Source of the DNA: Pseudomonadota bacterium
GTDB lineage: Bacteria; Pseudomonadota; Gammaproteobacteria; Burkholderiales; SG8-39
Assembly (NCBI GenBank): GCA_031380765.1
Contig: JANMXB010000463.1
Coordinates: 1 to 49,135 of the forward strand
DNA: 49,135 bases
Reading direction: 5' to 3'
Part shown: positions 6,161-22,277 of the stretch, piece by piece
Layout of the letters: the number at the start of each line of letters is the position of its first letter
Position numbering within the stretch: the stretch's first letter is position 1
Made by a program: the position numbers and the translations under genes
Notes under the pieces: model-generated
What the model was told of the DNA's origin: nothing
What the model saw: only the letters and a program-made list of their open reading frames with translations
The model's database searches: none

Positions 6161-7804
6161 CTATCGGCTGCCGCGCACCTTGCGCACTTGTGCGGTATAG
6201 GCCGCGAGGATCTCGCGGTTGAAGACGCCGCTGAAATTGTCTTCCATTTCGCGCGCAAGCTGCTCGTGCTGCGCGACCGAGATGTCCCACAACTTCGATT
6301 TGCGCGTGAGGTTGAGACCGCCCAGGTTTACGCCGTGCTCGCGCTCGATTTTCTTCGGGTCGATCCTGAGCAGAGCAGTCGTGACGGCTGCGCGCATGCC
6401 GGCGATCAGCGCAACCTGATGCGCGCGCAGATCGGCGCAGGCATCGCTCAACGCCTGCACCGGGTCGGAATCGCCGATGGCCGGACGCCGCGGGTCGAAA
6501 AGAAAGGCAATCACCTCCGCCGGGCTCGCCATGGAAGTGAGAGGATTGTCGCCCTCGGCGTCATCAGGCTCCGCGCCGAGCTCCCTGCGCGCCTCCGCTC
6601 GAGCGAGGAGCAGCATCATCACGCCCTCGACTGCCGCGCGGACCATGACGCCGGTGCTGCGCAAGAAAGATTCGGCATCGGCAACCGGGAGGTCGGCGAG
6701 CCCGGCGCCTTCGAGGAATGCCTGCACCGCGCGCTCGTTCGCGGTTGCCGCGGCGGCCGGCGCTGCGCGCGGCCCGATTTCGGGGGCGGGCGGCGGTGCC
6801 GTCGGCGGGCCCGGAGGCCGCACATAGGTGAGATCTTCGGAGAACCCTTCTTCCACTTCGGGGGCCGGCGGCGGCGCGGACGTTACGGAGGTTTCTTCCT
6901 CTGCGAACGCATCCGAAAGGTCGAAGTCGATCCCGGCAGGTGGTTCCCCTGCCGCGGGCGGTTCCACTGTTTTTTGCGGACCCGTTTCCTCCGCCGGCCG
7001 GCGGCGGAAGTTGGTCATGTCCTCCTCGGTAGTTTCGTCCGCGCCGCGGGAGGGTTCCGTCGAAGAGCTGCGCCCTGACGCAGGCTTCCCCCACATTGGC
7101 GGTATGTAGGTCACCTCGTCGTCCGCAAACGCGGTATCGGGCAAGGTCGTCTTGACTGCCGGTGGCGGTGCGGCGGGCGGCGGTGGCGGGACAACTGTCT
7201 TGACCGGAGGAACATAGGTCGCTTCTTCCGCGTCGGCCGCGCTGGCGGACGGGGGGAGGGGCGGGGTGGGCGGCGCAGCCTTTGGAGGCGGCACAACCGG
7301 GACCGCCGGCTTGGGCGGCGGAATGTAAGTCGCTTCCGGATTATCAGCCGCGCTGTCGGGCAGTTCTGCCGCTGGCGCCGGAGCTCTGGAAGGAAAGTCC
7401 GATCGACGCGCTACGTAGGTGATGTCCTCCGGTCTTTCGACAGCGTGCTTGGGCGGTTCCACCCGGGCCGGCGGGGGCGGCGGCACCCGGGCTTCGACGA
7501 TTTCAAGCTTGTACAGTCCGATCGATATGTGATCGCCGTCGGCCAGAACGGCCCGCTCGCCGAACATCAAGCGCTTGCCGTTGACGATGACCGGATTGAC
7601 CTTGGAGACCACCTTCAGCCAGTAGGCGCCGTCCTGCTCCTCGAACTCGGCATGCGCGCGCGAGACGTGCTTTTGCGTGTCCTCGAGCGTGACCGTGGAT
7701 TCCTTGTCGCGGCCGATGGTGATGCGCTTGTCGTGCAGCGTATGGCTCGACACCGGCTTGAACCGTCCTCCGGCGCTGATGGATATGTTGACCTTGATCG
7801 GCAT
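6161..7804 (-). CDS. FHA-domain protein with TagH-type (T6SS-associated FHA scaffold) C-terminal domain and proline-rich linker
   Basis: N-terminal FHA signature residues (ITIGRD...SRAH...VNGKRL). A 240-aa Pro-rich linker. C-terminus AVQAFLEGAGL...NPL...HQVAL...KLWD matches my recollection of the TagH/ImpI C-terminal domain. Confidence 0.75.
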   Translation of the reverse strand: MPIKVNISISAGGRFKPVSSHTLHDKRITIGRDKESTVTLEDTQKHVSRAHAEFEEQDGAYWLKVVSKVNPVIVNGKRLMFGERAVLADGDHISIGLYKLEIVEARVPPPPPARVEPPKHAVERPEDITYVARRSDFPSRAPAPAAELPDSAADNPEATYIPPPKPAVPVVPPPKAAPPTPPLPPSASAADAEEATYVPPVKTVVPPPPPAAPPPAVKTTLPDTAFADDEVTYIPPMWGKPASGRSSSTEPSRGADETTEEDMTNFRRRPAEETGPQKTVEPPAAGEPPAGIDFDLSDAFAEEETSVTSAPPPAPEVEEGFSEDLTYVRPPGPPTAPPPAPEIGPRAAPAAAATANERAVQAFLEGAGLADLPVADAESFLRSTGVMVRAAVEGVMMLLLARAEARRELGAEPDDAEGDNPLTSMASPAEVIAFLFDPRRPAIGDSDPVQALSDACADLRAHQVALIAGMRAAVTTALLRIDPKKIEREHGVNLGGLNLTRKSKLWDISVAQHEQLAREMEDNFSGVFNREILAAYTAQVRKVRGSR

Positions 7805-14428: not shown

Positions 14429-15069
14429 GACTTGAGCTCGATGCTCTGAATGGCGTGAGCCGCGATTGCGACTTCCTGATGGCTCGTCAGCAGGACCAGG
14501 CCGCCGCGCTCGAGGTGCTCTTCAATCACCAGCCTCACGGCTTCGATTCCGCCAGCATCGAGGGCCGCAAACGGCTCGTCGAGGATCCAGACGGCGCGCG
14601 TCGCGCTGAGCCGCAAGCGTGCCAGGGCCAGCCGGCGCTTCTGACCTTGGGAAAGAAACTTGCACGGCAGGTGTGCGAGCCCGTCGACGGCAAATTCGCG
14701 AAGCGCTGCGCCGATGAGGGCTTGCGTTGCGGGCACCCCGGCAAGGCGCGCGCAGAAGCGCAGATTCTCGCCGGCTTTCAGCTCATCCTTGACCGCGTTC
14801 AGATGACCGAAGTACGCAAGGTGCTGGTGGTACTCCTCGTCAAGCGCATGGATGCGTCGTCCGTTCCATTCGATGCTCCCGGCAGCAGGCTGAAGCAGGC
14901 CGCAGACGATGCGTAACAGACTTGTTTTGCCGCTGCCATTGGGCCCGCGCACCTGAAGCAGGCCGCCGTTGGCGAGGTCGAACGCAACGCCGTCAAACAC
15001 GCGCCGATTCCCCCGCACGCACTGGAGCCCGCTTGCGTGGAGTGCGGAGCGAGCAAGCGGCGCGCTCAT
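14425..15069 (-). CDS. ccmA: cytochrome c biogenesis ABC ATPase CcmA
   Basis: Walker A GPNGSGKTSLLR, signature LSQGQKRRLALA, Walker B VWILDEPF. Confidence 0.95.
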   Translation of the reverse strand: MSAPLARSALHASGLQCVRGNRRVFDGVAFDLANGGLLQVRGPNGSGKTSLLRIVCGLLQPAAGSIEWNGRRIHALDEEYHQHLAYFGHLNAVKDELKAGENLRFCARLAGVPATQALIGAALREFAVDGLAHLPCKFLSQGQKRRLALARLRLSATRAVWILDEPFAALDAGGIEAVRLVIEEHLERGGLVLLTSHQEVAIAAHAIQSIELKS

Positions 15070-15276
15070 TTATTCTTCATCCGGCAGCCATGCTTTTTGT
15101 CCTGAAGTCGAGGCGCACTCTACAGGATTGGTCCCGGACGCTGCCCATGGCGGGACGGCAAAACGCTCTGTTGTTAAAACGCAACAATCGCGGTTCGCTT
15201 GCAGCGTAAGGAGGGCATTGCCGCTTGTAGAGGCGGCGCTTTGCGGATACCCTGACGTGCGTCAGGCGATCCTCGC

Positions 15277-15330
15277 AATTTTATGAGATACTCGTTGTAA
15301 GATTAAGAAAACAAAAGATATTCGGTGCCA
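15277..15330 (+). promoter_or_regulatory. AT-rich island with candidate promoter for the TpsB gene
   Basis: About 50 bp of AT-rich sequence in a 65% GC background. TTGTAA (15295-15300), 16 nt, GATATT (15317-15322). By-eye match only. Confidence 0.25.
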
Positions 15331-15425
15331 CTACTCCTTTTGGAGGACATCTCAGCAAGAGCACTTCTTATCTTCGACGCCGGTCAGGGTACAGGCGGAG
15401 AGATTTCCGGTATGCAGAAGGCGCG

Positions 15426-17243
15426 ATGCTAGAATTCGCGTTCGGTTCAGGGGGCGCACTGATGTGCGGTAAGAAGCAAGAACAACAATCGGCGAAGCGT
15501 CGAAAGCTTCGAACGTCTAGCCTCACGTTGGCTGCGCTGGCATGGTCAATTGCCGGACCGCACGCCGCGTTCGGGCAGTCTGCACCGCAGGTCGCTCAAC
15601 TGCGCCCCGACGCCGGACAAATTCTCGAGCAGCAACGCGACCGGGTCCCGCCGCCTGCCCGTCCCGACCGGGAAGTCATGCCGCGCGAGGAACAGCCCCG
15701 GCCTGCGATGCGCGGCTCGGCATCGCTGAAAGTCACGGTCAAGCAATTCCACATTTCGGGCAACCGAATCTACTCCGAGGCTGAGCTGCAGCCGGCGCTG
15801 AAGGATTCCATCGGCAAGGAACTCGACTTCGAAGGGCTGACCGAAGCGGCAAACAGCGTTCGCGCGTTCTACCGCGCAAATGGCTACTTCCTCGCCCAAG
15901 CCTACTTGCCAGCGCAGCAGATCAAGGACGGCGTGGTCGAGATCGCAATCCTGGAGGGGCGACTTGGCACCGTCGAGCTCAAACCGGATCCTGCCTCGCG
16001 CCTGCGCCCCGACTTTGCGCGCGGCATCCTGGACCAGCACCTCAAAGAAGGCGATCCGATCACGGAGACGGGACTCGAGCGGCCGCTCTTGCTTCTGAGC
16101 GACCTGCCGAACGTCGTGGTGAGCTCCGAGATCGGACCCAGTACCCGGGCCATCGGTGCCGCCGACTTGCGCGTCAACGTGAAAGAGTCAGGCGGAATCA
16201 TCTCGGGTTATGCGGACCTGGACAACGCGGGCAACCGGTTCACGGGGGAATGGCGCACGGGCGTCAACCTGAATGCCAACAACCTGAGCGGCTATGGCGA
16301 CCAGCTATCGATGCGCGCCACGCTGACCAACGAGCGCATGAGTTTCGTGCGCGCCGCCATTTCGGCGCCCGTGGCCTATAGCGGCACGCGGGCCGGCATC
16401 AGTGTGGCCCAGTTCAGCTACAGCCTGCAAAAGGATTTCTCCGCGATCGGTGCGCACGGCGAAGGCACTGTGACCAGCTTTTATGCGCTGCATCCGTTTA
16501 TCCGTACCCGAAATGCCAACCTCATCGGGCAGATCTCGTACGAAAACAAGATGCTCAAAGACCGCATCGATACGACGAACAGCATCGAAGACCGCAAGAT
16601 CAATACCGTAAAGCTGGGCCTGGTCGGTGACCTGCGTGATCGCATTTTTGGCGGCGCGCTCAACTCGTTCTCGGTCTCCTACACCGATGGGACTCTCGGC
16701 CTGAATCCGATCGCGGTCGCCATCGCCGACCAGGGTGTGACCGGCCTGAAGACGCAGGGTAAGTTCTCCAAGGCAAACTTCGACATGCGCCGTCTTCAGT
16801 TGATCAGCGAGAACATAAACCTGCTCGTTGCGCTGAGCGGGCAGTTCGCCGACAAGAACCTCGCCTCCGCGGAGAAAATGTCCCTGGGGGGCGCCAGCGG
16901 CGTACGCGCTTATCCCACCGGCCAGGGTATCGGCGACCAGGGTTTCCTGTTCAGCACCGAGCTGCGCTACAACGTGCCGAAATTCCAGCTCTGGTCAGGC
17001 GACGTCACGGTCATGGGCTTCTACGACGCGGGCCGGGTCAAGGTCAACACCAGCCCGCTGGTCACGTCGACCGCGCCGAACTTCATCGGGCTTTCCGCGC
17101 TCGGCGTCGGAATGTCGGTGGGCAAGGACAATGACTTCCTGCTCAAAACCACTCTGGCGTGGCGCGGCGAGAACGACACGCCGGATGCGGACACAGTCAG
17201 GCGCGAGCCGAGGGTTTGGGTACAAGCGATCAAATGGTTTTAA
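15426..17243 (+). CDS. ShlB/FhaC/HecB-family two-partner-secretion outer-membrane transporter (TpsB)
   Basis: Signal peptide ending AAFG/QS. POTRA region VKQFHISGNRIYSEAELQPAL...FYRANGYFLAQAYLPAQQIKDGVVEIAILEGRLG. Barrel motif LGGASGVRAYP and terminal aromatic WF. The start could instead be ATG 15462. Confidence 0.9.
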   Translation: MLEFAFGSGGALMCGKKQEQQSAKRRKLRTSSLTLAALAWSIAGPHAAFGQSAPQVAQLRPDAGQILEQQRDRVPPPARPDREVMPREEQPRPAMRGSASLKVTVKQFHISGNRIYSEAELQPALKDSIGKELDFEGLTEAANSVRAFYRANGYFLAQAYLPAQQIKDGVVEIAILEGRLGTVELKPDPASRLRPDFARGILDQHLKEGDPITETGLERPLLLLSDLPNVVVSSEIGPSTRAIGAADLRVNVKESGGIISGYADLDNAGNRFTGEWRTGVNLNANNLSGYGDQLSMRATLTNERMSFVRAAISAPVAYSGTRAGISVAQFSYSLQKDFSAIGAHGEGTVTSFYALHPFIRTRNANLIGQISYENKMLKDRIDTTNSIEDRKINTVKLGLVGDLRDRIFGGALNSFSVSYTDGTLGLNPIAVAIADQGVTGLKTQGKFSKANFDMRRLQLISENINLLVALSGQFADKNLASAEKMSLGGASGVRAYPTGQGIGDQGFLFSTELRYNVPKFQLWSGDVTVMGFYDAGRVKVNTSPLVTSTAPNFIGLSALGVGMSVGKDNDFLLKTTLAWRGENDTPDADTVRREPRVWVQAIKWF

Positions 17244-17343
17244 GGCCGCGGCGCGGCGTGAAAAAGTCAGGGCCGCAGTACGACAGAAGTCGCGCATTTT
17301 CACAATTCCCCGAGCCAGACTGAACACCCGGCGCGTCCTGCTG

Positions 17344-17840
17344 GTGCATACGGGCAACGATGTGGCCAAGATTGCCGGCTCGACCCCTGGGGCGGTCAAG
17401 TATGCGGATGCCAATGCGCGGGCGGTCGATACGGTGACGACGGCGGGCTTCACGGGTGCGCGCAATGTGTCGCTCATCAATGTGCCGCTCAATACGGTGA
17501 CTCTGTCCGACACGGGGTTGACGAACGCCGTTGCGGTCACCGACACCAATACGATCGCGTTCACGACCGTGGTGCTGGGCGGCAACTTCACGGTCAACGC
17601 GCCAGCTATTGTTGCGCACGACACGACGAAGCTCGACGCCGCGGCGAGCGGCACCGGTACGTTGAACCGTACTGGCGGACTGATTTCGGTGAGCGACATC
17701 TCGTCGACCTTGAGCATAGGCACGACGGGATCGCTGCAAACGGATCGCAGGTGCCGGTAATTACGACAGTGACGGGGGTATCGGTTCCCGAAGGCTGCGG
17801 GCAAGAGGACGAAGACGAAACACCCTCCGAAAAGAACTGA
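17344..17840 (+). pseudogene. TpsA / filamentous-haemagglutinin-like beta-helix repeat fragment (no signal peptide or TPS domain; frame break near 17745)
   Basis: Frame 1 has strong G/C at third codon positions and a T/N/V/G/A-rich repeat-like sequence (NVSLINVPLNTVTLSDTGLTNAVAVTDTNTIAFTTVVLGGNFTVNAPAIV). It has no ATG, only GTG at 17344/17362, and stops at 17760. A coherent continuation (QVPVITTVTGVSVPEGCGQEDEDETPSEKN*) runs in another frame to 17840. Confidence 0.3.
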
Positions 17841-18005
17841 GGGCGCCCGCCCTGGCTGAGTTCATCGCGCGCTCGGGAGCCCAGGCGGGGCCGGATGCGT
17901 GCTTCGGCTCCGGCTTCTAGAATGGTAGAACACCCGTCTTGGCGGGCTTTCGGGCCGGCCGGGCGCCGAGTGGCGGGATCGCGGTAACTTGGACATAATT
18001 CGTAA

Positions 18006-18890
18006 ATGAATGAAACTGCCCAGGCTGCGGTGCTGTTTGTGGACGTGAGCGGAAGCACACGCCTCTACGAAAGCGCCGGGGACGCGGTTGCGCACGCCGC
18101 AATCGACAAGTGCATCACGATCTTCAAGGACAAGACCGCAGTCATCGGTGGTCGTGTCATCAAGACGATCGGTGACGAGGTGATGGCGACCTTTCCCGAC
18201 GCGAGCTCGGCGGCGGGCGCCGCGATCGAGATGCAAAACGCGATCGACGAGCTGCCGCCGGTTGCCAACACCAAGATTGGCGTGCGCATAGGGTTCCATT
18301 TCGGTCCGCTCGTGGAGCGCGACGGCGATGTGTTCGGCGACTCGGTCAACCTTGCGGCCAGGCTTGCCGGCCTGGCTTCCAAGGGTCAGATCATGACTTC
18401 GCGCGAAACCGTCGAACTCATGAGCCCCATCATGCGCTCGTCGTCGCGGCGCCTGTATTCGATCGAGGTGAAGGGCAAGGCGCAGGCCGTGGACCTTTAC
18501 GAGATCCTCTGGCAGCAGACTGAAGACCAGACGACGCTCGCGACCAACCGTTCCATGGTCAAGCAGAAGCTGACCGCCTTGCGCCTCAAGTATCTCGATC
18601 AGGAAATCCTCCTGGAAGGTGCGCGCACCTCGCTTACCCTGGGACGCGACAAAGCGGGCGATCTCGTCATCATCGATCGCATGGCCTCGCGCCAGCACGG
18701 CAAGATCGAGCGCCGCCTGGACAAGTTCGTCCTCGCCGACCACAGCGCAAACGGAACGTACGTAACCGTCGAAGGCGACAGCGAGGTCGTTCTCAGGCGG
18801 GCCGAGTTCGCCTTGCGTGGTCATGGTTGGATAGCGTTCGGCCAGCCGCGGGCCAGCGCCACGGAAACCGTCGAATTCTTTTGCGAATAA
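18006..18890 (+). CDS. class III adenylate cyclase domain fused to a C-terminal FHA domain (soluble)
   Basis: Cyclase motifs FVDVSGST (D13), IKTIGDEVMATF (K53, D57), DGDVFGDSVNLAARL (D108, N115, R119). FHA signature TLGRD...ASRQHG...SANGTYV. No TM segment. Confidence 0.9.
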   Translation: MNETAQAAVLFVDVSGSTRLYESAGDAVAHAAIDKCITIFKDKTAVIGGRVIKTIGDEVMATFPDASSAAGAAIEMQNAIDELPPVANTKIGVRIGFHFGPLVERDGDVFGDSVNLAARLAGLASKGQIMTSRETVELMSPIMRSSSRRLYSIEVKGKAQAVDLYEILWQQTEDQTTLATNRSMVKQKLTALRLKYLDQEILLEGARTSLTLGRDKAGDLVIIDRMASRQHGKIERRLDKFVLADHSANGTYVTVEGDSEVVLRRAEFALRGHGWIAFGQPRASATETVEFFCE

Positions 18891-18919
18891 GGCCGCGCTA
18901 CGCCCTTTCGCGGGCCCTC

Positions 18920-19660
18920 ATGGTGTTTCTGATGGTCGGCGAAGTTTTCTTTCTCCAGGCCCTGATAGCGAGTCAGGCGCGGGGGCAGGAGAGCAAGTCG
19001 ATGCCTGCCCCGGCGGCAAAATCCGCCCCCCAAAAAGCACCCGCGGCACCCGCGGCGGCCGTCCCGGCCGAGTACGAAGTGGCCAAGGGCGATACGCTTT
19101 TCAGGATTGCCGGCAGGGTCCGCCATCAAGGGGTCACGCTCAATCAGATGGTTCTCGGGCTCTACCGGGCCAACCCCGAAGCGTTCCTCGATGGCAACAT
19201 CAACCAGCTGATCGTTGGACGGGTCCTTAAGATACCCACGCTCGAAGCGGTAATGGCGGTGGACGCGGCACAGGCAAGCCAGCAGCTGAGGCAGCTCATC
19301 GCCAAGCCGGCCGCTCCGCCGGTGAAGGAAGCGCCGGCGCCCCTCAAGCCACGGCCCGAGCCGCCTTCAAAACCCGCCGCCAAGCCCGCATTGACCCCGC
19401 CACAGGCAGCGGAACGGTTCCAGGAAGGCCTCAGATTAGAGCGTGGCGGCGACTTGCAGGCTGCAATGACTGCCTATCTGGCTGCCGGGGAGTCCGGCGA
19501 CGGACTGGCGCAGAAGCGGCTTGGTGATATCTACAACACGGGAAACGCGCTCGTCCGGCGCGACTACGAAACCGCTCTGAAGTGGTATCAGAAGGCACGC
19601 GCGCAGGGGATTGAGATACCCAAACCCATCACCAATCCTGGCGTTCGTACCAAGCCGTAG
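18920..19660 (+). CDS. secreted FimV-type LysM domain protein with Pro-rich linker and C-terminal Sel1 repeat
   Basis: Signal-like N-terminus MVFLMVGEVFFLQALIASQA. LysM/FimV N-terminal block YEVAKGDTLFRIAGRV...LNQMVLGLYRANPEAFLDGNINQLIVGRVLKIP. Sel1-like GDGLAQKRLGDIYNTGNALVRRDYETALKWYQKARAQG. Start uncertain: no clear SD, and an alternative TTG at 18827. Confidence 0.75.
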   Translation: MVFLMVGEVFFLQALIASQARGQESKSMPAPAAKSAPQKAPAAPAAAVPAEYEVAKGDTLFRIAGRVRHQGVTLNQMVLGLYRANPEAFLDGNINQLIVGRVLKIPTLEAVMAVDAAQASQQLRQLIAKPAAPPVKEAPAPLKPRPEPPSKPAAKPALTPPQAAERFQEGLRLERGGDLQAAMTAYLAAGESGDGLAQKRLGDIYNTGNALVRRDYETALKWYQKARAQGIEIPKPITNPGVRTKP

Positions 19661-19704
19661 CCGTAGTCGTTCAGTTCAACGGCGCAGGTCAACGGCGGCG
19701 CCGG

Positions 19705-20334
19705 TTGCCCCGTTTGTTGGCGATGTCCCTGTCTTTCAATCGCCATCCTCCCGGAATTGCGCTGCATGTGGTGCGTCGCGGCCGGCGGCACGCGCAATGC
19801 TTTTTTGATGAGCGGGACCGCCTGGCATTCCTGGAAGGGTTGCGCGAGTACGCGGCGCGCTTCGAATGCGCTATCCACGCCTACGTGCTGATGGGAAACC
19901 ACTTCCACCTGCTGCTTACCGCGTCGAATGACAGCGGCACCGCGCAACTCATGACCAGGCTGTGCGAGCGCCACGAACAGTCGATCCGCGAAACGCAGGA
20001 CTGCCCAGCTGGTTTGTGGGAGGACGGCTTCGAAGCGTCATCGATCCACGTAAAAAGGCATTTCCTCGCCTGCATGCGCTACATTGAACTCAACCCGGTA
20101 CGGGCGGGACTGGTCTCGCGGCCGGGCGCCTTTCGCTGGTCCAGCCACGGCGCAAACGCGCTGGGGCGGGAGAATCTGCTTGTTTCGCCGCACCCCTTTT
20201 ACTATGCCCTGGGGCGCAGCGACGCCGAGCGCCAAAGGGCCTACCGGCGCCTGTTCGGCCCGCAGGTCATGCCGTCCGATCGAACACCAGGCGGGCCGCG
20301 CACAGGTCCTCGAGGGCCGTCCCGACCGACTTGA
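19705..20334 (+). mobile_element. REP-associated tyrosine transposase (RAYT, IS200/IS605 Y1 TnpA-like), diverged and probably 3'-truncated
   Basis: TTG start giving (M)PRL. HUH motif in YVLMGNHFHLLL and catalytic-Tyr block ACMRYIELNPVRAGLV...FRWSS. The last ~23 codons are antisense to the cyclodeaminase gene and look non-native. Confidence 0.65.
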
Positions 20335-21208
20335 AAACGGTGACCTCCGCGGGCTGGCGCCGGCCCGCGTGACGTCCCGCGACCAAATCGGCCAACTCCG
20401 CGAGCACGTGATCACGCCCGATAACGCCGCTTGCGAGCGGCTGCACAAGGTCGCCGGCCTCCTTGAGCGCCCCGGCGAAAGTGTCGACGAACACTGAGGC
20501 CTTCAAAATCAGCTCGTCGTCGCTTTCGCGCATGTCGCGGGTAAAGGCCCCGACCAAATCGACATGCGTGCCAGCTTTTACGTACGCGCCGCGGACCAGG
20601 GGTTCGCGTGCCGTGGTTGCGCAAGTGACGATATCTGCCTCGGCCATGCCGGCCGCGAGATCGGCCGCGGATTGAGCCGGAATACCCTCGCTCCTGAGCG
20701 ACCCAGCCACGGCATCCGCCCGGCCGGGAGAACGGCCCCACACCAGCACGCGCCGGAGCGTACGAACAGCGCAATGCGCCGAGGCCAGGTAAGGCGCCAA
20801 GGCTCCGGTACCCACCACCAGCACGCAGTCCGAGTCCGGGCGCGATAGGAAAGTGGAAGCCAGCGCCGAGGCGGCCGCGGTACGCCGCAGGGTAAGTGCC
20901 TCGCCGTCGATCAACGCGCGGGGATGGCCTGTCGCACCATCGAGCAGCACGTACAACGCCGAAACACTCGCCAGGCCGCGCTCCGGATTGCGCGGAAACA
21001 CGGTGACAAGCTTCACCCCGAGGTCGAGACCGGCGCGCCACGCCGGCATCAGGAGTAGCCGGTCGCCTTCAGGAGTGACCGGGAAGCTCGAGCGCACTGG
21101 CGCCTCGGCCCCGGCCAGAAAGGCGTCACGTAAAGCATCGACAAGGGCGGGATAGGGCAGGGCCGCGTGCACTTCGGCAGCCGTAATATGGCGGATCGAC
21201 GCAGCCAT
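20267..21208 (-). CDS. ornithine cyclodeaminase / mu-crystallin family protein
   Basis: Rossmann VLVVGTGALAPYL, family-typical C-terminus TVFKSVGTALEDLCAARLV. ATG 21208 preferred over TTG 21220. Confidence 0.9.
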   Translation of the reverse strand: MAASIRHITAAEVHAALPYPALVDALRDAFLAGAEAPVRSSFPVTPEGDRLLLMPAWRAGLDLGVKLVTVFPRNPERGLASVSALYVLLDGATGHPRALIDGEALTLRRTAAASALASTFLSRPDSDCVLVVGTGALAPYLASAHCAVRTLRRVLVWGRSPGRADAVAGSLRSEGIPAQSAADLAAGMAEADIVTCATTAREPLVRGAYVKAGTHVDLVGAFTRDMRESDDELILKASVFVDTFAGALKEAGDLVQPLASGVIGRDHVLAELADLVAGRHAGRRQPAEVTVFKSVGTALEDLCAARLVFDRTA

Positions 21209-21292
21209 CGCTACTGACAAAAAATCCCGATAAGCCTAAGGTGCAAGCCGTTCTCCAGCCAAGTTACTGACATTCAGCGCGGGCGATCCGGC

Positions 21293-22054
21293 TCACAGCA
21301 CGATCTCGCGCGCCGCGCCGCGTACGTCCATTTCGAATTCGAGGTCGACGACTGGCGGGCGCGTGTAGTTCCATACGATGCCCCCTGCCGCGGCGCCACG
21401 CGCAGCCAGGAGTTCGCCTACCAGGTGGCCGATGTTCTGCACCGTATACGCCTGGGTGGTGACCGCGTCCTTCCAGCCGAAGCCGAGGAGCTTCATGCGC
21501 CGCTCCATTTCGCCGATCACGAACAGAACTTTTTCGCGCAGGCCCTCCGGCGACGTATCGCCTGGCCGCACGATGCGCTCGCGGTACGACGGCCCGCTTT
21601 CCTTCGCGTCGCCACCGCCTGCCAGGACGAACGTCCGGCGCTTCGAATCCGGGGCCGGCACGGTATACGAGAACGCGTACATCGATGGACCCGCGGGCTT
21701 GTCGTACATAGGGCAAACGTTGGTACGCGCCACCGGATTCATCAGGGGATCGCCGTCCCTGTAGATCCCCCAGCGGGCAAGAGTCGTTACGTACAGCCTG
21801 TTGAAGTCGTAAAAGCCCTGGTCCGTAAACGGCGCAGGCGAACGCAGCTCGCATTGCGCGAAAGCGGCGGCGGGCCGTCCCAGCGACCGCAAATGGCCTT
21901 CGACCGCGACAAAAGCATCGGCCAATGGAAGGGGTTGCATGAAGCGTGCGCGTTCCAGCTCGTATCCCGGCTCGGCCGCGACGCCGCCTGAGTACTGGAA
22001 CACGGCTTTGACATAGCGATAGCCACCGGCGGCAAAAACGGGGACCTCTGACAT
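21293..22054 (-). CDS. conserved hypothetical protein (253 aa), family not confidently recognised
   Basis: ATG 22054 preceded by GAGGAG. Good GC3 bias. Sequence MSEVPVFAAGGYRYVKAVFQYSGGVAAEPG... It vaguely recalls CnbZ-type deaminase annotations, but I cannot verify that. Confidence 0.65.
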   Translation of the reverse strand: MSEVPVFAAGGYRYVKAVFQYSGGVAAEPGYELERARFMQPLPLADAFVAVEGHLRSLGRPAAAFAQCELRSPAPFTDQGFYDFNRLYVTTLARWGIYRDGDPLMNPVARTNVCPMYDKPAGPSMYAFSYTVPAPDSKRRTFVLAGGGDAKESGPSYRERIVRPGDTSPEGLREKVLFVIGEMERRMKLLGFGWKDAVTTQAYTVQNIGHLVGELLAARGAAAGGIVWNYTRPPVVDLEFEMDVRGAAREIVL

Positions 22055-22277
22055 CGAAAACTCCTCGCGAACTGGAAGGTGAGGCAAAGGATGCAACCTC
22101 GCCCGCCGTCGCGCAAGGCTCGATTCGCCTCGATTTGCGCGCGCAGGCCGGGCGCCCGAGCAATCCCAAGCTTCGCTTTTTGTGCAAGAATCCGGCCGCA
22201 AGATCTGCTGCCCAAGTCGCGGCGGGCCGGCCGGTTCCCTGAGTCAAGACGCACGGCAATCTGGAGGAGGCAGCTCG

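What the first reader, a model, noticed from the sequence alone, without database searches (positions are those of the whole stretch)
15426..19660. Orphan TpsB transporter, beta-helix fragment, adenylate cyclase-FHA fusion and secreted FimV-type LysM/Sel1 protein in one co-directional string
Seen in the sequence: four consecutive plus-strand elements downstream of an AT-rich island.
- A complete ShlB/FhaC-type outer-membrane transporter.
- A ~130-160 codon beta-helix-like fragment.
- A soluble class III cyclase with a C-terminal FHA domain.
- A signal-peptide-bearing protein combining a FimV-type LysM block, a Pro-rich linker and a Sel1 repeat.

Established knowledge: TpsB proteins normally sit beside a large TpsA cargo with an N-terminal TPS domain, and none is present here. 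FHA domains read phosphothreonine. In Pseudomonas aeruginosa the LysM/TPR protein FimV is needed for normal cAMP output of the cyclase CyaB.

Inference: this may be a compact, uncharacterised envelope-linked cAMP signalling or secretion module. A second FHA protein (TagH-like, 6161-7804) lies just across the ccm genes, yet no Hanks kinase or PP2C phosphatase is in the 49 kb.

Caveat: the FimV-like protein has no TM segment after its signal peptide, so it should be wholly periplasmic. It cannot directly touch the cytoplasmic cyclase, so any coupling would need a further partner.
Basis: partly seen in the sequence, partly recalled or inferred. Interest (0 to 1): 0.7.

Follow-up and report, generated by a model that had tools for sequence, protein, structure and literature searches.

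The report
Eroded adhesin-secretion locus plus FHA-cyclase pair
An intact outer-membrane exporter whose giant adhesin cargo gene has been almost wholly deleted sits beside a conserved gene pair, a phosphothreonine-reading cAMP cyclase and a cell-wall-binding periplasmic protein; in related soil bacteria that pair belongs to a larger cluster, undescribed in the literature searched, with a membrane protein kinase that is missing from this locus.

Summary
All four elements are real and sit at the stated coordinates. They are two units, not one compact module.

- **Unit 1, a decaying two-partner secretion locus.** tpsB is intact and under purifying selection. The "beta-helix fragment" is a frameshifted pseudogene remnant of a giant DUF5649-repeat TpsA, which is 2865 to over 9000 aa in relatives. 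Relatives show at least two independent tpsA deletions.
- **Unit 2, a constant gene pair.** It consists of a class III cyclase-FHA and a secreted LysM/Sel1 protein. In a LysM/Sel1-centred metagenome scan, the cyclase lay directly upstream in 43 of 43 assessable loci. A Hanks kinase carrying a homologous Sel1 module lay directly downstream in 37 of 40. The tail of tpsA lay directly upstream of the cyclase in 21 of 25.
- **The full cluster in relatives:** tpsB, tpsA, cyc-FHA, LysM/Sel1, kinase, TssL/DotU-OmpA, TssM N-terminal part, TagF, TagH.
- **What the window lacks.** The kinase, DotU, IcmF and TagF are absent, and a RAYT transposase sits where the kinase should be. A TagH-like gene lies 10 kb upstream.
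- **Selection.** The FHA half of the cyclase is as constrained as the catalytic half (dN/dS 0.02-0.09), so a kinase elsewhere in the genome is expected.

The cluster is a new variant of known kinds, and this copy is a reduced one.

The parts
15070..15425 (.). It contains the palindrome TGTTGTTAAAACGCAACA (15169-15186). The motif TGCTAGAAT lies at 15427-15435, just past this range.
   Evidence: GC is 0.44-0.47 at 15250-15400. The region aligns with seven relatives and these motifs are invariant.
15426..17243 (+). tpsB: a complete ShlB/FhaC-type Omp85 transporter. An alternative start codon lies at 15462.
   Evidence: POTRA_2 and ShlB domains. The GVRAY L6 motif and C-terminal KWF are conserved. 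dN/dS is 0.07-0.20 over all pairs compared (0.07-0.16 for pairs with the window), and 0.077 against L091, which also lacks tpsA.
17335..17742 (+). tpsA pseudogene, repeat remnant: 136 codons of beta-helix repeats with no start codon, signal peptide or TPS domain.
   Evidence: BLASTP and blastx matches to the DUF5649 protein of L001 and to L008, L009 and L096. There is no TPS-domain hit in the window. L091 lacks window positions 17287-17770.
17772..17840 (+). tpsA pseudogene, C-terminal tail remnant (TGVSVPEGCGQEDEDETPSEKN*), frameshifted relative to the repeat remnant.
   Evidence: blastx match to the last residues of the L001 protein (69% identity). The same tail is kept in L091. The frame was read from the sequence.
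17963..18005 (+). Conserved element directly upstream of the cyclase start codon (GAGTGGCGGGA...TAACTTGGACATAATTCGTAA). It is a candidate promoter or operator. No Shine-Dalgarno sequence is evident.
   Evidence: Invariant blocks in eight aligned loci. The core AACTTGGNCATAAT occurs once, at this position, in 14 close loci and once in the window.
18006..18890 (+). Soluble class III nucleotidyl cyclase with a C-terminal FHA domain, predicted to be an adenylate cyclase.
   Evidence: Pfam hits. Invariant catalytic residues D13, K53, D57, D108, N115, R119 and K156-G-K158, and FHA residues G213-R214, S228-R229 and N249 (H231 and G250 nearly invariant). dN/dS is 0.02-0.09 in both halves.
18827..19660 (+). 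Secreted LysM (FimV-core type), Pro-rich linker and Sel1 protein. The start is TTG 18827, overlapping the cyclase gene by 64 nt, or ATG 18920.
   Evidence: TIGR03505 7e-23, LysM and Sel1 hits. Signal peptides in eight homologues. The cyclase lies directly upstream in 43 of 43 loci. dN/dS is 0.15.
19705..20334 (+). REP-associated tyrosine transposase (RAYT), occupying the position where relatives carry the Hanks kinase.
   Evidence: Y1_Tnp 7e-11 and NF047646 1.6e-19. L101 and 37 of 40 metagenome loci have the kinase at this position.
6161..7804 (-). TagH/Fha-like protein (FHA plus T6SS_FHA_C). Its Pro-rich linker carries five [DE]xTY[IV] motifs. It is the only other member of the full cluster found in the window.
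   Evidence: Pfam hits. It is 44-48% identical to the TagH of full clusters. Motifs were counted. L093 has the same placement.

Best explanation
The string consists of two adjoining units left over from a larger ancestral cluster.

Unit 1 is an eroding two-partner secretion locus.
- tpsB still encodes a complete Omp85-type exporter.
- Its cognate cargo gene, a giant DUF5649-repeat TpsA adhesin-like exoprotein, has been cut down to a pseudogene of about 500 nt. The pseudogene has no start codon, signal peptide or TPS domain.

Unit 2 is probably a two-gene operon with its own conserved upstream element.
- The first gene encodes a cytoplasmic class III adenylate cyclase, probably a homodimer. Its C-terminal FHA domain docks on phosphothreonine.
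- The second gene encodes a periplasmic protein that binds peptidoglycan through a FimV-type LysM domain and presents a Sel1 module.

In relatives the next genes are:
- a single-pass Hanks Ser/Thr kinase whose predicted extracytoplasmic C-terminus carries a homologous Sel1 module;
- a TssL/DotU-OmpA protein with 1-7 N-terminal DP[DE]ATV threonine repeats;
- the N-terminal part of TssM;
- TagF;
- TagH/Fha.

Inferred mechanism: an envelope signal is read by the two Sel1 modules (LysM/Sel1 protein and kinase). The kinase phosphorylates threonine motifs on TssL-like or TagH-like proteins. The FHA domain recruits or activates the cyclase there, and cAMP rises.

In this window the kinase, TssL, TssM and TagF genes are gone from the locus. 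The cyclase pair and a TagH-like gene persist under strong purifying selection. They therefore most likely still work with a kinase encoded elsewhere in the genome.

What is shown: the anatomy, the synteny, the deletions and the selection. What is inferred: every biochemical step.
For: Domains.

tpsA remnant and giant tpsA in relatives:
- L088 has tpsB followed by a 4482-aa gene with a TPS domain.
- L096 has a 9259-aa gene. L175 has a 2865-aa gene.
- L001/L004 and L005 have DUF5649 proteins ending just upstream of the cyclase.

Independent deletions:
- The window and L091 keep C-terminal pieces.
- L086 keeps TPS-domain aa 66-174.
- L093 and L002 keep nothing detectable; L089/L090 likewise lack tpsA, with cyc-FHA starting about 130 nt after tpsB.

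Not an artefact.

Selection: tpsB dN/dS 0.07-0.20 over all pairs (0.07-0.16 for pairs with the window), cyclase 0.02-0.07, its FHA half 0.02-0.09, LysM/Sel1 0.15.

Catalytic and phosphothreonine-binding residues are invariant in 18 homologues.

Pairing statistics: 43/43, 37/40 and 21/25. A kinase lies within four genes in 48 of 76 genome loci.

Kinase architecture and Sel1 homology; 40% identity over 78 aa, E 5e-11.

Other cluster members: DotU/OmpA and IcmF_N, TagF_N, threonine repeats.

L101 has a cyclase tail 99% identical to the window's, then LysM/Sel1, then the kinase.

Own upstream element.

The precedent for kinase to phospho-TssL to Fha is Agrobacterium T6SS (PMC3953482). TagF-Fha is covered in PMC5995506.
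Against: - No kinase is visible in 49 kb, so the input to the FHA domain in this organism is unknown.
- No transcript data exist, and the sigma-70 scan found no promoter. Read-through from tpsB cannot be excluded, because no plus-strand terminator lies between 17243 and 18005.
- The Sel1-Sel1 link, the phosphorylation sites and the production of cAMP are all untested.
- tpsB shows no relaxation of selection after loss of its cargo, and this account does not explain that.
- No single contig shows tpsB, tpsA and the cyclase together. Giant genes break assemblies, so the ancestral order is assembled from overlapping evidence.
Confidence: 0.6

Rival explanations
1. One reading: tpsB, cyc-FHA and LysM/Sel1 form a self-contained functional module. 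TpsB is kept because it acts with the cyclase pair, for example by exporting or anchoring another envelope component, independently of TpsA.
For: - tpsB is intact and adjacent in at least five lineages that lack tpsA (window/L097, L091, L089, L086, L093).
- Its dN/dS is as low as in lineages that keep tpsA, and the L6 motif is unchanged.
- The order tpsB, (tpsA), then Sel1/kinase genes recurs in the distant L175.
Against: - The only established role of TpsB proteins is secretion of proteins bearing a TPS domain, and the LysM/Sel1 protein has none.
- tpsB and the cyclase each have their own conserved upstream region.
- The remnants are still recognisable, so the deletions may simply be recent.
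- A second tpsA elsewhere in the genome could explain why tpsB is retained.
- Across the wider family the cyclase is not found with tpsB.
Confidence: 0.15
2. The adjacency is inherited synteny only. The TPS locus and the cyclase/LysM-Sel1 (and kinase) genes are functionally unrelated neighbours.
For: - In 66 of the 76 genome loci, those with cyclases under 60% identical to the window's, no TPS gene was detected next to the cyclase, apart from a divergent tpsB in L081.
- The two units have separate conserved upstream elements.
- tpsA can be lost repeatedly while the pair persists.
Against: - The tail of tpsA lies directly upstream of the cyclase in 21 of 25 loci whose cyclases are only 58-64% identical to the window's and whose downstream genes differ.
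- L175 keeps tpsB-tpsA-Sel1-kinase even without the cyclase.
- The conserved C-terminal tail of these TpsA proteins is specific to this cluster.
Confidence: 0.2
3. The whole string is a dying relic. After loss of the kinase genes, the cyclase-FHA and LysM/Sel1 genes have no function and are on the way to becoming pseudogenes, like tpsA.
For: The kinase, DotU, IcmF and TagF genes are missing. tpsA is eroded. A transposase is inserted beside the pair.
Against: - dN/dS is 0.02-0.09 for both halves of the cyclase among six loci that all lack an adjacent kinase, with dS up to about 1.
- All catalytic and FHA residues are intact.
- The reading frames are intact in every relative.
Confidence: 0.04
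4. The cyclase is the signal generator of an anti-phage system of the Pycsar type.
For: Weak PycC matches, best E 1.3e-7.
Against: - The matches are far weaker than the generic class III cyclase match (6e-17).
- No effector gene is adjacent, and the other four proteins scanned (TpsB, LysM/Sel1, TagH-like, RAYT) have no PADLOC hit.
- Lys53 and Asp108 fit a purine (ATP) substrate.
- The gene is vertically conserved in a stable chromosomal context.
Confidence: 0.02

Closest known systems
Two-partner secretion systems (FhaC/FHA of Bordetella, ShlB/ShlA of Serratia)
   Same: The TpsB has POTRA_2 domains, a ShlB barrel and the L6 motif. In relatives tpsB is followed directly by a giant beta-helical gene with an N-terminal TPS domain.
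   Different: In the window the cargo gene is a pseudogene remnant. The cargo family carries DUF5649 repeats and a cluster-specific Cys-containing C-terminal tail. The locus is linked to kinase and cyclase genes, which I did not find described for TPS systems.
T6SS threonine phosphorylation pathway: PpkA, TssL/Fha and TagF (Agrobacterium tumefaciens PMC3953482, PMC5995506; Pseudomonas aeruginosa H1-T6SS)
   Same: Relatives encode a Hanks kinase, a TssL/DotU with N-terminal threonine motifs, TssM (IcmF_N), TagF_N and an Fha/TagH protein in one string. The window keeps the TagH-like member.
   Different: - No T6SS structural genes appear in the clusters. In one cluster the next genes are a SulA-like gene, an unannotated gene and a PHP/DNA polymerase III alpha gene.
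- TssM is truncated to about 600-650 aa.
- No PP2C was seen in the close clade.
- An extra FHA protein that is a cyclase suggests the output is cAMP rather than firing of a secretion machine.
- The window itself lacks all of these except TagH.
FimV-CyaB of Pseudomonas aeruginosa (bioRxiv 10.1101/116954)
   Same: A protein with a FimV-type LysM peptidoglycan-binding domain and TPR/Sel1-like repeats is genetically tied to a class III adenylate cyclase.
   Different: - FimV is a large inner-membrane hub with a transmembrane segment and a cytoplasmic domain that can reach CyaB.
- This protein is about 245 aa, wholly periplasmic, and matches only the FimV core.
- Coupling here would run through a kinase and an FHA domain.
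- CyaB is a distant cyclase relative (3r5g, E 6e-8).
Class III adenylate cyclase catalytic domains with solved structures (Ma1120 4wp9, 3mr7, LipJ 1ybt, Rv1264 1y10)
   Same: These are the best sequence matches for the catalytic domain among solved structures (E 2e-16 to 2e-8). The canonical metal, substrate and transition-state residues are present.
   Different: None of the solved chains matched beyond the cyclase domain, so none carries the C-terminal FHA domain. The roughly 295-aa cyclase-FHA architecture forms its own large family, with 1124 representatives at E<=1e-30, and I found no characterised member.

Membership tests
TpsB (Omp85-family two-partner secretion transporter) | POTRA domains followed by a ShlB/FhaC-type beta-barrel, with the L6 (V/I)R(G/A)(Y/F) motif and a C-terminal aromatic residue | tested here: met
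   POTRA_2 5e-18 and ShlB 2e-26 covering profile positions 1-297 of 311. GVRAY at aa 492-496, the same as in relatives that keep tpsA, and the protein ends in KWF.
TpsB (Omp85-family two-partner secretion transporter) | An adjacent cognate tpsA encoding an N-terminal TPS domain | tested here: not met
   No TPS-domain similarity anywhere in the window. Only a repeat and tail remnant lies at 17335-17840. The feature is met in relatives L084, L088, L096 and L175.
TpsA exoprotein (the fragment) | Signal peptide, TPS domain and a long beta-helical repeat region in one open frame | tested here: not met
   The fragment matches only internal repeats and the last about 22 residues of DUF5649 TpsA proteins. 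It has an internal deletion and a frameshift. Pfam finds no domain. It is a pseudogene.
Class III nucleotidyl cyclase (adenylate-specific) | Two metal-binding Asp, a substrate-specifying Lys/Asp pair, and a transition-state Asn/Arg pair | tested here: met
   D13, D57, K53, D108, N115 and R119 are invariant in 18 homologues. Guanylate_cyc 6e-17. Residue roles were assigned from the canonical class III motifs, which is established knowledge. Enzyme activity was not tested.
FHA domain (phosphothreonine reader) | Conserved Gly-Arg, Ser-x-x-His and Asn-Gly loops that contact phosphothreonine | tested here: met
   G213-R214, S228-R229-x-H231 and N249-G250 are invariant or nearly so. FHA 4e-8. The AlphaFold model is confident for aa 190-294, with pLDDT 80-92. 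dN/dS is 0.02-0.09.
FimV/HubP polar landmark proteins | FimV-core LysM-type peptidoglycan-binding domain | tested here: met
   TIGR03505 scores 80.2 bits against a cut-off of 43.45, E 7e-23.
FimV/HubP polar landmark proteins | A large protein with a transmembrane segment, a long acidic cytoplasmic region and the FimV C-terminal domain | tested here: not met
   The protein is only 246-277 aa. No hydrophobic segment follows the signal peptide. No NCBIfam hit other than FimV_core was found. It contains the domain but is not a FimV orthologue.
T6SS threonine phosphorylation pathway (PpkA/PppA/Fha/TagF/TssL/TssM) | A Hanks kinase together with an Fha/TagH protein and T6SS membrane-complex genes at one locus | tested here: not met
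   The window has only the TagH-like gene. Kinase, PP2C, DotU, IcmF_N and TagF are absent. Relatives have kinase, DotU, IcmF_N, TagF and TagH, but no T6SS structural genes were seen next to them.
Pycsar anti-phage system | A PycC cyclase with an adjacent effector gene | tested here: not met
   Only weak PycC matches, at or above E 1e-7. There is no effector, and no other PADLOC hit.

The most novel reading that the evidence does not exclude
A threonine-phosphorylation module derived from the T6SS has been re-used in uncultured soil Betaproteobacteria. The module consists of a PpkA-like kinase with an external Sel1 module, a TssL with multiple threonine repeats, the N-terminal part of TssM, TagF and TagH. 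In this reading it acts as a surface or envelope sensor that reads the state of a giant TPS adhesin and/or the peptidoglycan through a LysM/Sel1 co-sensor. It converts that state into cAMP through an FHA-cyclase. The window would then show the minimal core (tpsB, cyc-FHA, LysM/Sel1 and TagH) that selection keeps after the adhesin and the local kinase genes are lost. That would imply that TpsB and the pair have a joint role independent of TpsA.
Probability: 0.2. Interest if true: 0.8.

Novelty: new variant of a known kind. Interest (0 to 1): 0.55.

Why it matters
Every part belongs to a known kind: two-partner secretion, class III cyclase, FHA and Hanks-kinase signalling, T6SS accessory proteins, and LysM/Sel1 proteins. 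The conserved combination was not found in the literature available here.

If the inferred wiring is right, three things follow:
- Ser/Thr phosphorylation would feed directly into cAMP synthesis in Gram-negative bacteria.
- A T6SS regulatory set would be working without a T6SS.
- There would be a periplasmic, kinase-mediated counterpart to the FimV-CyaB link.

The compact cyclase-FHA family is large, with 1124 clusters at 50% identity, and I found no characterised member.

The window also records repeated, independent loss of a giant adhesin gene while its dedicated exporter stays under purifying selection. That is a usable test case for what "orphan" TpsB proteins do.

Tried and rejected
- **Assembly collapse of repeats as the cause of the fragment.** Rejected. 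Two independent assemblies reproduce it, and the non-repetitive TPS domain is missing too.
- **Foreign AT-rich island.** Rejected. The region aligns with relatives and carries invariant motifs.
- **Sigma-70 promoter and terminator scan of 15000-20500.** No promoter was found and terminators were not above chance. This says nothing either way about co-transcription.
- **A sigma-54 reading of the TGGC...element upstream of the cyclase.** Rejected by inspection. The spacing and the -12 position do not fit, and the would-be -12 region is the variable part.
- **REP or inverted repeats around the RAYT gene.** Nothing convincing.
- **AlphaFold of the cyclase-FHA from an 18-sequence alignment.** Only the FHA half was confident and the cyclase half had pLDDT below 50, so no fold search was run.
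- **PADLOC.** Only weak PycC matches.
- **Search of the window for the Crp-family and DAO genes seen in L093.** Both are absent.
- **Literature searches.** Searches for the cyclase-FHA family, DUF5649, orphan TpsB, and TPS with PpkA found no description of the cluster.
- **Seeing past the giant tpsA from the tpsB side.** This failed because the gene (13-28 kb) exceeds the 10-kb flank. No single contig in hand shows tpsB, tpsA and the cyclase together.

Full report
**What is in the window.**
- ORF listing and profile searches confirm the four plus-strand elements.
- tpsB (15426-17243, 605 aa) has POTRA_2 (5e-18) and a near full-length ShlB barrel (2e-26).
  - Its L6 motif GVRAY and terminal KWF are identical to those of relatives that still have a cargo gene.
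- The cyclase-FHA (18006-18890, 294 aa) hits Guanylate_cyc (6e-17) and FHA (4e-8).
- The next gene (TTG 18827 or ATG 18920, to 19660) hits FimV_core TIGR03505 (7e-23, above the curated cut-off), LysM and Sel1.
  - It starts with a signal-like segment ending ASQA, as do eight homologues.
  - It has no later hydrophobic segment.
- Upstream lie ccmEFGHI (+) and ccmDCBA (-).
- A TagH-like gene (FHA plus T6SS_FHA_C) lies at 6161-7804 (-).
- Downstream lie a RAYT-type Y1 transposase (19705-20334) and an ornithine cyclodeaminase gene.
- The window has no kinase, PP2C, DotU, IcmF_N, TagF or TPS domain.

**The fragment is what remains of a giant TpsA.**
- In L001/L004 (cyclase 95% identical), a protein of at least 1072 aa with eight DUF5649 repeats (1e-94) ends just upstream of the cyclase.
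  - Window fragment residues 85-129 and 130-164 match its residues 736-780 and 894-927, so there is an internal deletion.
- blastx maps repeat-like sequence to 17335-17742.
  - In another frame, the last about 22 residues of such proteins map to 17772-17840 (frame read).
- From the tpsB side, relatives show tpsB followed directly by giant genes:
  - 4482 aa in L088 and 9259 aa in L096;
  - 2865 aa in L175;
  - a partial gene in L084.
  - The two genes scanned, L088 and L084, have a TPS domain at the N-terminus (3e-35).
- The window has no TPS domain and no start codon for the remnant. The remnant is a pseudogene.
- L097 and L098, from other samples, are 99.2-99.3% identical and colinear across the remnant. 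The structure is therefore real.

**Repeated loss of tpsA, retention of tpsB.**
- The gap between tpsB and the cyclase varies among loci:

| Locus | Gap (nt) |
|---|---|
| Window | 762 |
| L086/87 | 427 |
| L091/92 | 305 |
| L093-95 | 254 |
| L002 | 190 |
| L089/90 | about 130 |

- L091 keeps only the C-terminal tail.
- L086 keeps a piece of the TPS domain (aa 66-174, 72-77% identical) and no tail.
- The window keeps repeats and the tail.
- These states cannot come from one event, so there were at least two independent deletions.
- Lineages with tpsA (L084, L001, L005) are interleaved with them by tpsB and cyclase distance.
- tpsB is intact everywhere. Its dN/dS is 0.07-0.20 over all pairs compared, and 0.077 between the window and L091, which both lack tpsA.
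- This retention is unexplained. Possible reasons are a second cargo elsewhere, a recent loss, or another role.

**The cyclase-FHA and its constant partner.**
- The family is large. There are 1124 representatives (50% clusters) at E<=1e-30, almost all about 295 aa.
- In 18 homologues the following are invariant or nearly so:
  - canonical class III residues D13 and D57 (metal), K53 and D108 (adenine-specifying), N115 and R119 (transition state), and K156-G-K158;
  - FHA residues G213-R214, S228-R229-x-H231 and N249-G250.
  - The roles of these residues come from established knowledge of class III cyclases and FHA domains, not from assays.
- dN/dS is 0.02-0.07 for the whole gene.
  - It is equally low in the FHA half (0.02-0.09) among six loci that lack an adjacent kinase.
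- A 43-nt element directly upstream of the ATG is invariant in blocks.
  - Its core AACTTGGNCATAAT is present at that position in all 14 close loci.
  - No Shine-Dalgarno sequence is evident.
  - I read this as the pair's own promoter or operator, possibly giving a leaderless mRNA. That is an inference.
- The LysM/Sel1 gene overlaps the cyclase gene or follows it within 30 nt.

**The larger cluster.**
- A genome-collection scan centred on the cyclase gave 76 loci with a called cyclase gene.
  - A Hanks kinase is the immediate neighbour in 36 of them and lies within four genes in 48.
- A metagenome scan centred on the LysM/Sel1 protein gave 58 loci with both domains:
  - cyclase-FHA directly upstream in 43 of 43 assessable loci;
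  - kinase directly downstream in 37 of 40;
  - tail of tpsA directly upstream of the cyclase in 21 of 25.
- The three loci without a kinase (L099, L100, L119) belong to the window's own sub-clade.
- Long loci (L103, L104, L114, L116, L129, L132, L141, L148) read in this order: tpsA, cyc-FHA, LysM/Sel1, kinase, DotU-OmpA, IcmF_N, TagF_N, TagH.
- The kinases have an N-terminal kinase domain, long coiled-coil regions, one hydrophobic segment and a C-terminal Sel1 module.
  - That module is 40-47% identical to the one in the LysM/Sel1 protein.
- The DotU/TssL homologues carry 1-7 N-terminal DP[DE]ATV repeats.
  - The TagH linkers carry E-x-T-Y-[IV] motifs, five of them in the window's TagH.
- After TagH, one cluster continues with a SulA-like gene, an unannotated gene and a PHP/DNA polymerase III alpha gene, not with T6SS genes.
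- L175 has tpsB-tpsA-Sel1-kinase without the cyclase.
- L101 has a cyclase tail 99% identical to the window's, and the kinase directly follows LysM/Sel1.
  - The window lineage therefore lost the kinase from this locus.
  - A RAYT gene now occupies that position, as it also does in L005 and L099.

**Most likely mechanism.**
- Shown: the anatomy, the synteny, the deletions and the selection.
- Inferred, by analogy with PpkA to phospho-TssL to Fha in Agrobacterium (PMC3953482), TagF-Fha (PMC5995506) and FimV-CyaB (bioRxiv 10.1101/116954):
  1. The periplasmic LysM/Sel1 protein, bound to peptidoglycan, and the kinase's external Sel1 module together sense an envelope cue. The cue may involve the conserved Cys-containing TpsA tail.
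  2. The kinase phosphorylates the threonine repeats of the TssL-like or TagH-like proteins.
  3. The cyclase docks through its FHA domain and makes cAMP.
- In the window, only the cyclase, the LysM/Sel1 protein and TagH remain locally. Strong constraint on the FHA half predicts a kinase elsewhere in the genome.
- tpsB probably has its own promoter in the conserved ccmA-tpsB region. That region holds the palindrome at 15169-15186 and TGCTAGAAT at 15427-15435.

**Comparison and verdict.**
- Each part is a member of a known family. The membership table lists what was met and what was not.
  - The LysM/Sel1 protein contains a FimV-core domain but is not a FimV orthologue.
  - The window does not contain a T6SS phosphorylation pathway, only its TagH member.
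  - It is not a Pycsar system.
- The conserved combination of TPS genes, an FHA-cyclase, LysM/Sel1, a Sel1-bearing kinase and T6SS-type regulatory proteins was not found in the literature searched. I rate it a new variant of known kinds.
- The window itself holds a reduced, partly decayed copy.
Its interpretation is partly right about synteny and envelope-linked cAMP signalling.
  - It is wrong that the module is compact and self-contained.
  - It missed that the fragment is the lost cargo gene.
- Interest is moderate (0.55). The cluster deserves study in a relative with the full set. This copy is mainly informative about gene loss.

Noticed in passing
window 15169-15186 and 15427-15435: Two motifs in the ccmA-tpsB intergenic region are invariant or nearly so across seven relatives: an 18-nt palindrome, TGTTGTTAAAACGCAACA, and an extended -10-like TGCTAGAAT. 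The second overlaps the annotated tpsB ATG, so the true start may be ATG 15462.
   Followed up: partly
window 19705-20334: A RAYT-type (REP-associated) Y1 transposase sits exactly where relatives carry the Hanks kinase. It is also present in L005 and L099 and absent from L001, L086 and L093. No flanking REP repeats were found.
   Followed up: partly
L033, L036, L043, L047-L051, L053, L056, L059, L062, L065, L069, L073, L077-L079 (genome loci): In Rhodocyclales and Rhodoferax-type genomes the cyclase-FHA is followed by the kinase and then two small secreted proteins of about 270 and 228 aa. These two have no Pfam match (clusters 3 and 4, 19 genes each). Another clade has the kinase plus a Tll0287/HAMP protein and a FecR-domain protein.
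   Followed up: no
window 20267-22201, compared with L093 13530-17678: The window lacks the D-amino-acid oxidase gene and the Crp-family gene (cNMP_binding plus HTH_Crp_2) that L093 has between the OCD gene and the AMP-binding gene. A candidate cAMP receptor near the cyclase is therefore missing here.
   Followed up: partly
L084, L086, L089, upstream of ccmE: In these relatives a cNMP-binding/4Fe-4S protein and a multihaem cytochrome (Cytochrome_C554) occupy the place next to ccmE. In the window and in L093 that place holds the TagH-like gene.
   Followed up: no
C-terminal tails of TpsA proteins (L001, L006, L008, L009, L013); window 17772-17840: The giant TpsA proteins of this cluster share a conserved C-terminal tail, YGFAGD(V/I)G..PPM(D/N)H..(E/G).G(I/V)S.P..(C/G)F..., often with two Cys. 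Its last residues survive in the window and in L091 even after the rest of the gene was deleted.
   Followed up: no
window 21296-22054 (-): A conserved 253-aa protein with no Pfam hit, 85% identical to its counterpart in L093, lies between the OCD gene and the AMP-binding gene.
   Followed up: no
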